A stretch of DNA of 64,000 nucleotides from the human T2T-CHM13v2.0 reference genome, Homo sapiens, in assembly GCF_009914755.1 (NCBI RefSeq), contig NC_060931.1, one strand, 5' to 3'. Of the stretch, positions 39,107 through 45,257 are shown piece by piece; position 1 is the stretch's first letter; each line of letters opens with the position of its first letter. The notes beneath the pieces were generated by a model. It searched no databases and was not told the origin of the DNA. It was given only the letters and a program-made list of their open reading frames with translations. The position numbers and the translations under genes are program-made.

Positions 39107-40370
39107 GAAAAAAATACTTTTAAAATAAAGCATAATATTAGCAAATACTTATACCAAATTATTTAATTCTCACAGATGATATCATTATGCCCATTTTACA
39201 GATAAAGAAATTAGCACAGAGAGGTTAAGCAATATTTTCAAGAACCCAGAGCTAGTAGGCAGTATATCTGGGATCCAAATCCAGGCAGTCTGGATCCAGA
39301 ACCCATGCCCTTAACCACTTAACTGTGCTGTATCTCAGTGTAGGAGTCCATGGGGGATTGGGAGGAGAACAGAAAAGGGGTCCTGGTGATGAAGAAAAAG
39401 TCTAGAAACTGATCTCCCTGCAGATGAAAAAGCTAAGACCCAGGAATGCCTCATGGTAGGTTAGTGGTAGTCAGATCCAGAATTTAACTAACAATTTTGC
39501 CATCAGATATATTATCAGAGAATGTCTTTTATTCTTAAGTGACAAACATGACTATGATTTAAAATAGAGTAAAAAATATTCAGCAGATTTTTTTTCACCC
39601 ATCTAGAACAAGGAGCTAATTTTATTGGTTCCTAATACCCCCTCATATGTACATATTAATATGCTCTACTTGCATACATATGTGTAAACTCTCACTGCAG
39701 CAAATATTAAATGTAAATAACAAAGTACACATATTAAAAGTGTGAAATGTAAAATGTGATCTTCCAACCCAGTTTGGAAAGCTACAGTTGGAAAAGACTT
39801 TTCAAAATCATTTTTTCATTATTGTTATCATTCATTTTGTTGTTGTTTTTAAGAGAGTAATATGTGCTTACTAGAAAAAAAACTAACAGAATAGAAGGGG
39901 ATAAAATAAGAAGTAAAAGTATTTCAGACATGCTAATTTTATTTCTCATTGTTAGGCAGTTTATCTTTCCAGGAATTGTCTATAAAGCTACAATTATATA
40001 ATATATATACATTTAAATTTGTTTATGATCATATCAATGTCTTTCATAAACTATATTTCTGTTTATTTTTAAACTTTAATACTATTTTATGACTTTTTAT
40101 AATACGTGCTTAACATTTATTTTTATGTAAAATACGATTCTGCCGCATTCTTTTCAACAACTTCACAGTAACTTCTTTGCAAGGCTAAGCCACATGGTAG
40201 TCAACTGTTGTTCATTGATGGACATTTAAGCTGTCTCTAGTGTTTTTTTTTTGTTTTAATAGGATAATTTATTTTTTAAGAATCAGTTTTTAAAGTTATG
40301 TTAAAGATCGAACTTTTAAATGCATGCAATTATATATAAACAATAATCTATATTAATTTTTAAATTTTCT

Positions 40371-41250
40371 GCTGGATGCAGTGGCTCATGCCTGTAATCC
40401 CAGCGCTTTGGGAGTCTAAAGTGGGCGGATCTTGAGGTCAGGAGTTGGGAGGCCAGCCTGGCCAACATAGTGAAACCCTGTCTCTACTTAAAAAAAAAAA
40501 AAAAAAAAAAAAAAAAACAGGCTAGGTGCGGTGGCTCATGCCTGTAATCCCAGCACTTTGGGAGGCTGAGCAGACGGATCACAAGGTCAGGAGATCAAGA
40601 CCATCCTGGCCAACATGATAAAACCCTGTGTCTACCAAAAATACAAAAATTAGCTGGGCGTGGTGGCATGTGCCTGTAATCCCAGCTACTCGGGAGGCTG
40701 AGGCAGGAGAATTGCTTGAACCAGGGAGTTGGAGGTTGCAGTGAGCCAAGATTGCACCACTGCACTCCAGCCTGGCGACAGAGCCAGACTCCATCTCAAA
40801 AAGAAAACAAAACAAAATACAAAAATCAGCTGGGAGTGGTGGCAGGAGCCTGCAATCGCAGCTATTGGGGAGGCTGAAACACGGATCACTTGAACCTGGA
40901 AGGCAGAGGTTGCAATGAGATGAGATCATGCCACTGCATTCCAGCCTGGGCAACAGAGCAAGACTCCATCTCAACCGGTACAGTGGCTCACGCCTGATCG
41001 AGACCATCCCGGCCAACATGGTGAAACCCCGTCTCTACTAAAATACAAAAAATTAGCCGGGCATGGTGGCAGGCACCTGTAGTCCCAGCTACTCGGGAAG
41101 CTGAGGCAGGAGAATCGCTTCAACCTGGAAGGCGGAGGTTGCAGTGAGCTGAGATAGCGCCACTGCACTCCAGCCTGGCGACAGAGGGAGACTCTGAAAA
41201 AAAACAAAAAACCAAAAACAAAACAACAACAAACAACAACAACAACACCA
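40371..41250 (+). mobile_element. Alu cluster: an Alu nested in the linker of another Alu, followed by an internally deleted Alu
   Basis: Left arm 40371-40500, full Alu 40520-40815, right arm 40816-40974, Alu from 40975 lacking about 50 nt after CACGCCTG. Confidence 0.9.
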
Positions 41251-41437
41251 AAAAACCCTCCAACTCAAAAAATAAAAAAATTTAAAAAAGCACTTTTTAA
41301 TTTTCAGGGAAAAAAAATCTAAGGCTGGTGTTCACAATGTCAATTTTATTTATGGTTTGTTCTCACTATAAGCTTCCCTGTAATCCATTTCTACCCATTT
41401 TTTACTCTGCACAAACTTTTTACCTTTTTGCTCTTTG

Positions 41438-41719
41438 ATTTTTTTTTTTTTTTTTTTTTGAGATGGAGTTTCACTCTTTTTGCCCAGGCTGGAGTGAAGT
41501 GGCGCGATCTTGGCTTACTGCAAACTCCACCTCCCAGATTCAAGCAATTCTCCTGCCTCAGCCTCCCCAGTAGCTCAGATTATAGGCACCCCCCACCATG
41601 CCTGGCCAATTTTTGTATTTTTAGCAGAGACGGGGTTTCACCATGTTGGCCAGGCTGGTCTCAAACTCCTGACCTCAGGTGCTCCGCCCGCCTCGGCCAC
41701 CCAAAATGCTGGGATTAGG
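41438..41719 (-). mobile_element. AluS, inverted relative to the adjacent cluster
   Basis: Reverse Alu consensus. Confidence 0.93.
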
Positions 41720-43399
41720 CTGCTCTTTGAGAGCTTTACAAATTTATTTAATCCTTACAATGACTCTGAGGTAGATCTTCTTGTCTCTGTAGATAGGAAA
41801 ACTGGAACTGTCAAGAAACTTGCTTAAGATCACAGAGTGCATTAGGTTCGGATCCATAATCAAATTGGAAAAAAAGAAAAACACAAAGAACAATTAAGAC
41901 TCCAAAGCCCTAATGCATAGTCTTTGTATCCTATCACACTGTGGCATTATATATATAAAACAAAAAACTTTATAATAAAGAGAAATGTATTTTCCAAACT
42001 GTGGTTCTCCAGATAACAATGTGTCTCCGTGAGGACCATATAGTAAATACATCCCATAAAAAATGATTACCAACCAAAAGCTTGCAATTAATGTTCCAAC
42101 TAAAGAAAAAGACTCAAAGTAAAAGCATCAGCTATCCTAGGTACTGCTTGGAGGCAACACCAAACACGACACATAAATCATTGTTGAAAAAAACCGTAAA
42201 ACATAATGCTGGGTATTTAGTTATGTTGAATGCTAAAACTAATCTTTCCTTAACTAAAGGTCTCCGTCAAATGAAAAGTGTATTTTAGTCAAGTCAGGAT
42301 TTCTGTTTTGCAAACTCAAAGTCTTATATTATTAAGCATATATTCAGGTTATTTATTTTCCTGATCATAATTTTCAAATCAAATTAAGATCAAACTCCAC
42401 TGACCGTCAGGTACTGTATATTCTCATTTTGATAAATTTCAAATTAATGATAAAAATGTATTAACCTGCTGGTCAATTATACATTTTATAAATATATTTT
42501 AACCAATGACATATTATCAGTAAGTACAGATTCAACGGCAAGATTTCATTAAGAAAGTGTTTCAAGCTTCAGATGCCCAAGACTTATTTAATGTGTAAAT
42601 CTTCACCACTACAATAACCACATGGTTAAACGATCACCACTTCCATTAGCAAGCTCAAGCCTAATAAGTGATCTCCTGGGACTTCAGCACAGAGGTTTTC
42701 TAATTTTATTCCTCCACTCAATGTGGCTATTCTCCCTTATCTATTCACGCTGGCAAAGCTTCTAGTTAAACTGGAATTAGTAACTATTTGATGATAATAA
42801 TTAACATATACTGAGTGCTTCCGATGGCGCAGTTAATTCTTACAGTTGATAAAAGTGTGGCACAAAAAGGTTAATCAAGTAGCAGAGGCAGGATTTGAAC
42901 CCAGGAATTCTGGTTCCAGGGCCCGGATTCGGAGTTACAAAGGTGAGTAAACTGAAAAGAGTCCTACTTTTATTGTCATTGCTTTCTAATAAAAATTATT
43001 TTTTTCTTCCAATTGTTTAAATCTCTTCTCATTCTCTATTTAAATATTAGGCGTTCATTTAAATATTAGGCGTCTACCTTACAGTAGGACATCTTTAAAC
43101 AACGTAAAAAAGGAAAGCTTTGTCTTCACCTTCACACATACCGGTCTGCCCATAAATTTTGCAATCCAGTTCTGCCTGATTCTAAACTGCTTGTCTCTTG
43201 AAGCGAATGCCTTAAAAAGTGACACTGGGATCAGGATAGTTATCTCCATCCATCCTCCCTCAGAAAAACAACTATATTCGAGTAATTCTTGGGACCACTG
43301 AGAACAATACACAGACCTTTGGGTAACTTCAAGACAAAAAAGGCAAAAAGTCGGGGAGAAGGTGTGGGAGGATGATTTTCCCCTTCTAAACGTAAGGTA

Positions 43400-43950
43400 T
43401 AAAAGGGCTCAGAAAGCGGAAAAAGAACCCTAAAAAGCAAGGTGCGGGACGGCGTGAGGGACCACACATTGGGCGCTCCGCCCAAGGGGTCCGGCTCCTT
43501 CTCCGCGGCGATGGCGCGTCCTTGGGCTCAGCAACCCTCCTGAAGACACCTAACCTCCTCCTTCTCCAGCCTGCCCCTCTGGGGCCTGCGAGCCCCGTCC
43601 CGGGCCGGGGGTCGGAAGCCGTGCCATGTAGGACCCCGAAAAGGCCCCCAAGCTTGGCGCGGAAGGCGCCGCCAGTGACCGGCTGCGGCTGGGGGCGGAG
43701 GCCGGCAGTTGCTCGGAGCTCCGGCGGGTCAGGAGGTGACGGGAGGAGGAGGAGGCAGGAGGAAGAAAGGGGGGTTGGGAGGTAGCGTCCGGTAGGTCTG
43801 CGCAGACAGCGCTGCCAGACCTCTGACTCCCCCAGTCCTGCCGCCGCCGATAGCCCCACAAGGCGACATGGGAAGTCCGCCGGAGCAGAGGGGAGAAAAT
43901 TCAAAACGAGTCTACTCAACCTCGTCTTGGCTCCGAGGCCCCGCCATGCA
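43400..43950. promoter_or_regulatory. Intronic CpG island at the 5' end of the retrocopy
   Basis: High GC and CpG density ending abruptly at the TSD. Confidence 0.8.
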
Positions 43951-45257
43951 GACCCCTCTAGTTTTTTACTATTAAAAATAGTGCTGCAACAAACATTTTA
44001 TACATCTATCTCTGTATATATGTGTAAGTATACTGAAAATGAGTTCCCAGAATTAGAATGGACAAGTCAAAGGGCATACAGATCTTAATTTTGTTAAATT
44101 CCATCAAACTGTTTTCTATTATAGCCCCAAGAAGTTCCCCTTGACTGTTTCCTTACATCCTCATATTGTTTTATGAGTCCTAATAATTAAATATCCCTTT
44201 GTTGTGTGTTGCCCTTATATTTCCCATTGTATGTTTGATGTTGTTTTTCTCTTACTATATAAAAGTTTTAGATTGTTAGGTAGTGACATTTATCAATCTT
44301 TTTGCTTATGAGAGTTTCCAAATTTCCTGACATGCTTCGAAACACCTTCTCACAATGAAACATAAATACATAAATTCATCCATAAATGCATAAATGAGAC
44401 AGATCTGTAAATATTGATAGAAAACAACTGGACACACAGTCTTAAGTGTAAAAGCCAATCACAGAAGAGTATGCACAATGTTACAGGTGTAACTACATAT
44501 TTGCGTATGTCTAAAACACCTGTGGAAGGTGGCCTGGAGATGGGGAGAAATGGGTAGATGGAGGATTTTCACTCTTCATTCTTTTTACTATTCGAACTAT
44601 TTTTTTATGTATTATCTATTCAAATGAAAATGTTTAAATCTTATTGTTTAAAAAGCAACCTCTATCATGTTTGCATACAAAAAAGTCTCCCTTTTCACCT
44701 ACATTTCATTCCCTACCATTTAAAGCTTAACACATTTAGAATGTAGTATAATTAGTGAGGCAGGGATCCAGTATTGCCTTCTACCAAATAGATCTGTTGA
44801 ATTTTTAGGTTTGTTAAGAGGCAAAGACCAAGGGTGGAGAGGAAGGAGTGAGAGTGCCAGGTGAGGAAAGTCTAAAATCTCTCGACTTAATATGAGAATG
44901 GTGGCCACGGAAGGCTAAGAGTCTCTAGTGCCAGGTGTGGGTTATACACACATCTTCTATGCAATTACCGTGACAAGCACCCAGGGTGTGAGGTGAGGTG
45001 TACCTCCTAGCTTGATGCTGCTGGTTCAAGTCCCAAATCAGAGAGGGGAAGCCAAAAAAGGAGCCGAGAAAGATGAGATGCTTCGCACGGTTTTTAAAGT
45101 AAAGTCGGAACATTCCTGACCGACTAGGCAGCCCCAGGCGCTCAGGTGGGAATCACTGCCCAGCACACAGAACCCAGAGTCCAGCGCGGCTGTCACCGGC
45201 TCTAGGCTGGATCTAAGCGTCGGACCAGGAGGCCGCAGTCAAAATCTGTTCTCCTAC

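What the first reader, a model, noticed from the sequence alone, without database searches (positions are those of the whole stretch)
40235..43967. 3.7 kb retrocopy of a non-coding, CpG-island-headed RNA inserted in IQUB intron 1
Seen: an old L1M reads ...TTGATGGACATTTAAGCTGTCTCTAGT (to 40241) and resumes CTCTAGTTTTTTACTATTAAAAATAGTGCTGC (from 43956), so it has been split. CTCTAGT(g/t)TTTT is duplicated, and the nick context is TTTT/AC. A T10 tract (40243-52) follows the left copy, and a minus-strand AATAAA lies 15 nt inside it. The other end is a GC-rich block resembling a 5' UTR or promoter, with no credible protein. Established: TSD, poly(A) and a near-consensus endonuclease site are hallmarks of L1-mediated retroposition. 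Inference: this is a full-length processed copy of a lncRNA, a class that ORF-based pseudogene pipelines tend to miss. I cannot identify the parent with confidence; WAC-AS1 is only an unverified recollection.
Basis: partly seen in the sequence, partly recalled or inferred. Interest (0 to 1): 0.9.

Follow-up and report, generated by a model that had tools for sequence, protein, structure and literature searches.

The report
Unspliced CARF-promoter RNA retrocopy in IQUB
A 3.7 kb stretch in the first intron of IQUB is a young, L1-made copy of an unspliced RNA from the CARF side of the WDR12/CARF promoter on chromosome 2, and annotated alternative IQUB leader exons now lie inside it.

Summary
Window 40254-43954 (minus strand) is colinear with chr2:203393744-203397477 of the same genome. 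They differ at 57 of 3680 aligned bases, and homology stops exactly at both claimed ends. Only the chr7 copy has an A10 tail. It sits where the chr2 sequence continues as unique DNA, 14 nt after a shared AATAAA. The copy is flanked by CTCTAGT(G)TTTT / CTCTAGTTTTTT and splits an old L1 whose halves abut on another L1 copy. So this is an L1-mediated retrocopy and chr2 is the parent.

The parent is not WAC-AS1. It starts in the CpG island between WDR12 (minus strand) and the CARF/ALS2CR8 coding exons (plus strand). No intron was removed, so the template was an unspliced RNA ending at a poly(A) site 3.7 kb downstream. That is most simply a CARF pre-mRNA cut in an intron.

The copy carries about 555 bp of the parental island and several intact splice donors. 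RefSeq alternative IQUB 5' exons (43921-43940, 43555-43714, 43130/43142-43210) lie inside it on the same strand.

Known kind; modest interest.

The parts
40235..40241 (.). Left copy of the target-site duplication (CTCTAGT). It is followed by G at 40242 and then the T run.
   Evidence: It maps to the same L1 positions as the right copy.
40243..40252 (-). Poly(A) tail (A10 on the minus strand). Part of it may be the T run of the target site.
   Evidence: The chr2 parent has no A run here and continues as TATTTGTGAATTAG...
40268..40273 (-). AATAAA poly(A) signal, shared with the parent.
40254..43954 (-). Retrocopy body, colinear with chr2:203393744-203397477 (+).
   Evidence: 97.98% over 2963 bases and 97.04% over 743 bases; 57 differences in 3680 aligned bases and 7 indels, the largest 50 bp.
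43955..43955 (-). One extra G at the 5' end that the parent lacks (parent has T). It fits a cap-templated G, which would mark the copy as full length from the source RNA's start site.
   Evidence: The cap reading is recalled knowledge, not tested here.
43400..43954 (-). CpG-island fragment: 555 bp, GC 0.66, 45 CpG. It is the part of the parental island that lies downstream of the start site.
   Evidence: 45 of 45 CpGs are intact in both copies.
43921..43940 (-). RefSeq alternative IQUB first exon (also annotated as 43921-43938). It is not preceded by AG, and its donor is GAG|GTTGAGT.
   Evidence: Hub gene table; splice context. The exon is identical in chr2.
43555..43714 (-). RefSeq alternative IQUB exon. 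It is preceded by CC, so it is a start site rather than an acceptor. Its donor is GAG|GTTAGG.
   Evidence: Hub gene table.
43130..43210 (-). RefSeq alternative IQUB internal exon. The acceptor is AG at 43212-43211. The donors are AAG|GTGAAG (43130) and CCG|GTATGT (43142).
   Evidence: Hub gene table. At 43132 the chr2 parent reads CAG|GTGAAG.
40365..41300 (+). Cluster of Alu elements, antisense to the copied RNA. They are present in the parent, so they were part of the template.
41440..41720 (-). Alu in the sense orientation of the copied RNA. It is also present in the parent.
43956..43967 (.). Right copy of the target-site duplication (CTCTAGTTTTTT). The nick context is TTTTTT/AC.
40212..40241 (.). 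Left half of the split old L1 (the part that could be aligned).
43968..44073 (.). Right half of the split old L1 (the part that could be aligned).

Best explanation
An RNA started on the plus (CARF) side of the CpG island shared by WDR12 and CARF (calcium-responsive transcription factor, ALS2CR8) on chromosome 2. It was left unspliced and was cleaved and polyadenylated about 3.7 kb downstream, after an AATAAA. That site probably lies inside a CARF 5' intron. L1 endonuclease nicked an old L1 in IQUB intron 1 at TTTTTT/AC. The T run primed on the poly(A) tail, and the whole RNA was reverse-transcribed up to its cap and integrated with a duplication of up to 12 bp.

The divergence is 1.1-1.6%. 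This puts the event roughly at the split of human, chimpanzee and gorilla (inferred, not tested).

The copy lies in the sense direction of IQUB, 1.3 kb below IQUB exon 1. It brought about 555 bp of CpG island and several intact splice donors. Annotated alternative IQUB transcripts now start or splice within it, so it most likely adds untranslated leader exons, and perhaps start sites, to IQUB. It encodes no protein.

Shown here: the copy, its parent locus, its boundaries, the lack of splicing and the intact splice sites. Inferred: the CARF pre-mRNA identity, the age and the promoter activity.
For: 1. Parent and boundaries.
- A whole-genome search with 2236 bases gave 10 matches. Two are long: the window itself, and C2:203393744-203395973 at 98%. 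The other 8 are pieces of 39-83 nt.
- The full block aligns from 43954 to 40254. Both flanks become unrelated exactly there.

2. Direction of copying.
- Only chr7 has the A10 tail and the TSD.
- chr2 continues with a T/G-rich stretch after the shared AATAAA.
- chr7 interrupts an L1 whose halves abut on another L1 copy.

3. Identity of the parent locus.
- A WDR12 exon lies about 4.3 kb upstream on the opposite strand (PDB 6p0q_A E 4e-14, 8fky_SP E 3.9e-13).
- All 5 genome matches to Pfam ALS2CR8 (PF15299) lie 49-62 kb downstream on the same strand.
- The start site sits inside a GC-rich island with about 140 bp upstream and about 555 bp downstream of it.

4. Unspliced template.
- Alignment to the parent's genomic DNA has no gap above 50 bp.

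5. Use by IQUB.
- The hub table lists IQUB exons at 43921-43940, 43555-43714, 43130/43142-43210 and 43130/43142-43714.
- Their donors and the acceptor are consensus-like.
- 43940 and 43714 are not preceded by AG.

6. No coding or known RNA content.
-.
Against: - The tail is short. It is at most 10 A, and some of that may be the target's own T run. The left TSD copy also carries a G at 40242 that the right copy lacks.
- I could not see the annotation of the chr2 locus. Calling the template a CARF pre-mRNA rests on gene order, strand and my recollection that WDR12 and CARF are head to head. A separate single-exon lncRNA from the same start site would fit equally well.
- The parental sequence upstream of the start site was not copied, including a GCGCCTGCGC motif (NRF1-like by recollection). 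The core parental promoter was therefore not inherited.
- Exon 43921-43940 is identical in chr2. Support for that exon could partly come from cross-mapped CARF reads, and I could not inspect the transcripts.
- CpG preservation does not show protection of the chr7 island. The chr7 lineage lost 0 of 45 island CpGs against 3 of 50 elsewhere, which is not a significant difference. The significant pooled test (Fisher p 5e-5) is driven by 11 losses on chr2.
- No primate empty site could be examined.
Confidence: 0.85

Rival explanations
1. The template was a separate single-exon lncRNA that shares the CARF start site, not a CARF pre-mRNA ended in an intron.
For: The copy has no coding sequence. The template had defined 5' and 3' ends and was never spliced. 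I could not see the chr2 annotation.
Against: The copy holds several strong splice donors that annotated transcripts use on chr7 and that are conserved in chr2. This is what 5' exons of a spliced gene look like. The start site lies on the CARF strand, upstream of the CARF coding exons.
Confidence: 0.25
2. The copy is transcriptionally inert. The RefSeq IQUB exons inside it are artefacts of reads or cDNAs from the 98% identical chr2 parent.
For: Exon 43921-43940 and all splice sites but one base are identical in chr2. Many of the 11 IQUB transcripts may be predicted models. No paper in the library holds both IQUB and CARF.
Against: The exons are listed as parts of IQUB transcripts, which must join unique IQUB exons downstream. 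Several distinct exon forms are annotated. The copy lies in the sense direction only 1.3 kb below the IQUB start site.
Confidence: 0.25
3. A DNA-level segmental duplication or gene conversion from chr2, not retroposition.
For: The copy is colinear with genomic DNA and no intron is removed.
Against: Homology starts at a CpG-island start site and ends 14 nt after an AATAAA. An A run absent from chr2 follows it. There is a duplication of up to 12 bp at a TTTTTT/AC site, and no homology extends beyond either end.
Confidence: 0.02

Closest known systems
Semiprocessed (intron-retaining) retrocopies, such as rodent preproinsulin I
   Same: Retroposition of an incompletely processed pre-mRNA. Ancestral intron sequence is kept, and the copy has a poly(A) tail and flanking direct repeats. 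This is as described in passages of PMC3449122.
   Different: Here no intron at all was removed and no coding exon was copied. The template ended at a poly(A) site only 3.7 kb from its start. The copy begins at the start site and carries no upstream promoter DNA.
Retrocopies expressed as chimeric transcripts with a host gene, or from a promoter inherited from the parent (Carelli et al. 2016)
   Same: The copy integrated in an intron in the sense direction and has annotated splicing with host exons. Parental CpG-rich sequence lies at the start sites. Passages of PMC4772013 report 13 human host-gene chimeras and about 3% of expressed retrocopies with a parentally inherited promoter.
   Different: In those cases the host supplies upstream exons to a coding retrocopy. 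Here a non-coding copy appears to supply leader exons, and perhaps start sites, to the host. Surveys that begin from coding sequence would not list it.
Classical processed pseudogene
   Same: L1 endonuclease site, TSD, poly(A) tail at the parental cleavage site, and a new chromosomal location.
   Different: Introns are not lost and no open reading frame is present.

Membership tests
L1-mediated retrocopy | Flanking target-site duplication | tested here: met
   CTCTAGT(G)TTTT at 40235 onward and CTCTAGTTTTTT at 43956-43967. Both copies map to the same positions of another L1 copy.
L1-mediated retrocopy | Poly(A) tail at the 3' end, absent from the parent and placed after a poly(A) signal | tested here: met
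   A10 at 40243-40252. AATAAA at 40268-40273 is shared with chr2. chr2 continues as unique sequence. The tail is short.
L1-mediated retrocopy | Parent locus elsewhere, with homology limited to the transcribed unit | tested here: met
   chr2:203393744-203397477, with 57 differences in 3680 aligned bases. The flanks are unrelated.
L1-mediated retrocopy | Insertion at an L1 endonuclease-type site (consensus TTTT/AA, recalled) | tested here: met
   TTTTTT/AC at 43962-43969. This is one base off the recalled consensus.
Processed (spliced) pseudogene | Parental introns removed | tested here: not met
   The copy is colinear with the parent's genomic DNA and the largest gap is 50 bp, inside an Alu. 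Segments that are spliced out in annotated IQUB transcripts are retained.
   The only long second match in the genome is on contig C2. 0 of the 10 matches lie on C10.
Segmental duplication | Homology runs on past the insertion boundaries | tested here: not met
   Both flanks are unrelated from the first base outside the block.
Retrocopy with a parentally inherited promoter | Parental sequence lies upstream of the copy's own start site and drives it | tested here: inconclusive
   The annotated starts at 43940/43938 and 43714 have 15-17 nt and 241 nt of parental sequence upstream of them (hub table). Promoter activity was not tested, and the parental upstream 140 bp was not copied.

The most novel reading that the evidence does not exclude
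The retrocopy delivered a promoter-competent piece of the WDR12/CARF housekeeping CpG island, together with ready-made splice donors, into IQUB intron 1. This would have created alternative start sites and leader exons found only in African apes and humans. A fraction of the expression of IQUB, a gene tied to cilia and sperm, would then be driven and shaped by sequence born on chromosome 2, including an upstream ATG in exon 43555-43714.
Probability: 0.4. Interest if true: 0.5.

Novelty: new member of a known kind. Interest (0 to 1): 0.3.

Why it matters
- It is a clean, datable case of L1 copying an unspliced, prematurely polyadenylated RNA. Retrocopy catalogues built on coding sequence or on intron loss would not list this class.
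- Its exact 5' end, with one extra G, records the start site and the poly(A) site that the CARF-side promoter used in the germ line when the copy was made.
- If the annotated IQUB exons are real, it also shows a non-coding retrocopy giving leader exons, and perhaps start sites, to its host gene.
- A practical point: the 98% identity with chr2 can mislead short-read mapping at both loci.

Tried and rejected
- WAC-AS1 as parent: rejected, because the only long second match is on chr2.
- A protein-coding parent segment: rejected. There are 77 stop-to-stop ORFs of 30 aa or more and none is credible. 0 of 5 tested match Pfam.
- A known RNA family: 0 Rfam matches.
- Proving the L1 split by a genome DNA search with the right flank found only the flank itself, 1 match. 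The L1 is too diverged for that search.
- blastn of the flanks against the rest of the window and the chr2 stretch gave one weak hit each.
- Comparing the flank translations with solved L1 ORF2p failed because the frames hold stop codons. I used DNA alignment to other L1 copies instead.
- Earlier findings of this scan were not open.
- Literature: no paper holds both IQUB and CARF as whole words. The searches listed no paper with IQUB among their hits. One search gave nothing on the WDR12/CARF promoter arrangement.
- CpG preservation as proof of an unmethylated island on chr7: rejected as not significant for the chr7 lineage alone.
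Full report
**Observation**

The window reads ...TTGATGGACATTTAAGCTGTCTCTAGT up to 40241. Then come G (40242), T10 (40243-40252) and G. At the other end...CATGCAGACCC is followed at 43956 by CTCTAGTTTTTTACTATTAAAAATAGTGCTGC. A minus-strand AATAAA lies at 40268-40273.

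The block's right end is GC-rich. GC is 0.64-0.72 in 200-base windows over 43400-43899. There are 45 CpG in 555 bp, with observed/expected 0.74.

Of 77 stop-to-stop ORFs of at least 30 aa that overlap the block, none is convincing. 0 of 5 of the longer minus-strand ones match Pfam at E<=0.01. Rfam gives 0 matches at gathering score.

**Is an L1 really split?**

A genome DNA search with the right flank found only itself, 1 match. blastn of both flanks against the rest of the window and a chr2 stretch gave one weak hit each. A comparison with solved L1 ORF2p was not possible because the frames hold stops.

A local alignment to another L1 copy in the window settled the question.
- Left flank 40212-40240 aligns to 33865-33893.
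- Right flank 43957-44073 aligns to 33889-34008.
- The flanks therefore abut on an uninterrupted L1 and overlap by just the duplicated TCTAG.
- Shuffled flanks reach the observed scores in 11 of 500 trials (left) and 0 of 500 (right). The position of the left match adds to the case.

A second L1 copy on chr2 shows the same abutment: 40216-40239 aligns next to 43963-43982. Each of those alignments alone is at chance level, with 99 of 300 and 142 of 300 shuffles reaching the score.

**The parent**

A search of the window's own genome with 41720-43955 (2236 bases) gave 10 matches.
- One is the window itself.
- One is C2:203393744-203395973 at 98% over query 2-2236.
- Eight are short pieces of 39-83 nt.

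With 18 kb of chr2 in hand, blastn aligns window 43954-40996 to 203393744-203396694 (97.98% of 2963). It aligns 40996-40254 to 203396744-203397477 (97.04% of 743). The 8 other rows are Alu-to-Alu matches at 81-87%.

A global alignment has 57 differences in 3680 aligned bases between 40254 and 43954. There are 7 indels, and the largest is 50 bp, missing from chr7 inside an Alu. The Alus inside the block are shared, so they were in the template.

**Boundaries and direction of copying**

*5' end (minus strand).*
- chr7 reads ...AAAAAACTAGAG|GGGTCTGCATGGCGGGG.
- chr2 reads ...GCATTATGCT|GGTCTCCATGGCGGGG.
- Upstream of this point the two are unrelated, and chr7 has one extra G. An extra G at the 5' end of full-length retrocopies is, by my recollection, ascribed to reverse transcription of the cap. 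That reading was not tested here.

*3' end.*
- Both loci share ...AAAAAATAAATTATCCTATTAAAA.
- chr7 then has C, A10 and the TSD.
- chr2 continues TATTTGTGAATTAGTCTTGATTTCATTTTTG, a T/G-rich stretch of the kind expected downstream of a cleavage site.

Only chr7 has the tail and the TSD, and chr7 interrupts an L1. chr2 is therefore the source and chr7 the retrocopy.

**What the parent locus is**

- About 4.3 kb upstream of the parental start, on the opposite strand, an open stretch matches human WDR12 (6p0q_A E 4e-14; 8fky_SP E 3.9e-13; 2 chains matched).
- All 5 genome matches to Pfam PF15299 (ALS2CR8, the CARF family) lie at C2:203442806-203455910 on the plus strand, 49-62 kb downstream.
- The start lies in a GC-rich island from about 203393600 to 203394300, with about 140 bp upstream of the start and about 555 bp downstream of it.

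The template therefore began on the CARF side of the island between WDR12 and CARF. That these two genes are head to head is my recollection. The literature search did not confirm it. WAC-AS1 is excluded.

**Not spliced**

The copy is colinear with genomic chr2, so no intron was removed. It nevertheless contains good splice sites, all conserved in chr2:
- donor GAG|GTTGAGT after 43921;
- donor GAG|GTTAGG after 43555;
- donor CCG|GTATGT after 43142;
- donor AAG|GTGAAG after 43130 (CAG|GTGAAG in chr2);
- acceptor AG at 43212-43211.

The simplest reading is a CARF pre-mRNA that stayed unspliced and was cleaved at a poly(A) site 3.7 kb from its start. A stand-alone single-exon lncRNA from the same start is the rival, and I could not see the chr2 annotation to decide. 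Five other minus-strand AATAAA hexamers inside the block were passed over.

**Age**

Divergence is 1.55% overall (57 of 3680), 1.14% in the non-Alu middle (19 of 1670) and 0.54% in the island (3 of 555). A few differences sit in low-complexity runs and may be alignment noise.

Recalled genome-wide divergences are about 1.2% for human-chimpanzee, 1.6% for human-gorilla and 3% for human-orangutan. Against these, the insertion dates to about the split of the African apes. This is inference. No primate genome could be searched.

**CpG decay**

- All 45 island CpGs are intact in both copies.
- Outside the island, 36 of 50 CpG sites are intact in both copies. 11 are CpG only in chr7 and 3 only in chr2.
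- The pooled contrast is significant (Fisher p 5e-5) but is driven by losses on chr2.
- For the chr7 lineage alone the figures are 0 of 45 against 3 of 50, which shows nothing.

**Consequences for IQUB**

The block lies in IQUB intron 1 in the sense direction, 1.3 kb below exon 1 (45258-45361; hub table). The hub table lists further IQUB exons at 43921-43938/43940, 43555-43714, 43130/43142-43714 and 43130/43142-43210. All are inside the copy and on its strand.

43940 and 43714 are preceded by GG and CC, not AG. They therefore look like start sites inside the copy, while 43210 has a proper acceptor.

The copy thus appears to supply untranslated leader exons, and possibly start sites, to IQUB. 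The IQUB coding region starts in the next exon, at 23105.

Three cautions apply.
- Exon 43921-43940 is identical in chr2.
- I could not inspect the transcripts or their support.
- The parental upstream 140 bp was not copied.

**Comparison with what is known**

Passages of PMC3449122 describe semiprocessed retrocopies that keep ancestral introns, with rodent preproinsulin I as the example.

Passages of PMC4772013 report that about 3% of expressed retrocopies inherited a parental promoter. They also report that 13 human retrocopies form chimeric transcripts with host genes, and that CpG islands are prominent at retrocopy promoters.

The present case belongs to these kinds. It differs in being wholly unspliced and non-coding, and in donating exons to the host rather than receiving them.

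In the library searched, no paper holds both IQUB and CARF as whole words. Searches listed no paper with IQUB among their hits. I saw only listings for the other papers, and I did not open any supplements.

**Verdict**

The retrocopy reading is confirmed. The parent is identified as the CARF-side start of the WDR12/CARF island rather than WAC-AS1, and the copy is unspliced rather than processed. It is a new member of a known kind. The possible gift of start sites and leader exons to IQUB gives it modest added interest.

Noticed in passing
window 45456-46003: A purine-rich tandem array with a period of about 58, about 10 copies and 72% matches. Each unit carries a GGGGCGGGGCC-like box. GC skew is about +0.6 and AT skew about +0.7. 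It lies directly upstream of IQUB exon 1 and inside exon 1 of LOC124901740, and it overlaps the RefSeq 'silencer' rows.
   Followed up: no
window 40254-43399 versus chr2:203394300-203397477: CpG loss since the copy was made is lopsided. 11 sites are CpG only in the chr7 copy and 3 only in the chr2 parent. This may reflect heavier germ-line methylation of the parental intron.
   Followed up: partly
window 40996/40997: The chr7 copy lacks 50 bp inside an Alu that the chr2 parent keeps. This is either a later deletion or a skip during reverse transcription.
   Followed up: no
L011 7700-7745 (chr2:203393700-203393744): Just upstream of the parental start site lies GCGCCTGCGC, which is NRF1-like by recollection. 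It was not carried into the copy.
   Followed up: no
window 43941-43980 (minus strand): The annotated alternative start at 43940 has the A/T-rich L1/TSD sequence TAATAGTAAAAAAC about 20-35 nt upstream of it. The flank, not the parent, may therefore supply a TATA-like element. This is speculation only.
   Followed up: no
window 43555-43714 (minus strand): The annotated leader exon contains an upstream ATG (CTACATGGCACGG), which could open a short upstream reading frame in IQUB transcripts that use it.
   Followed up: no
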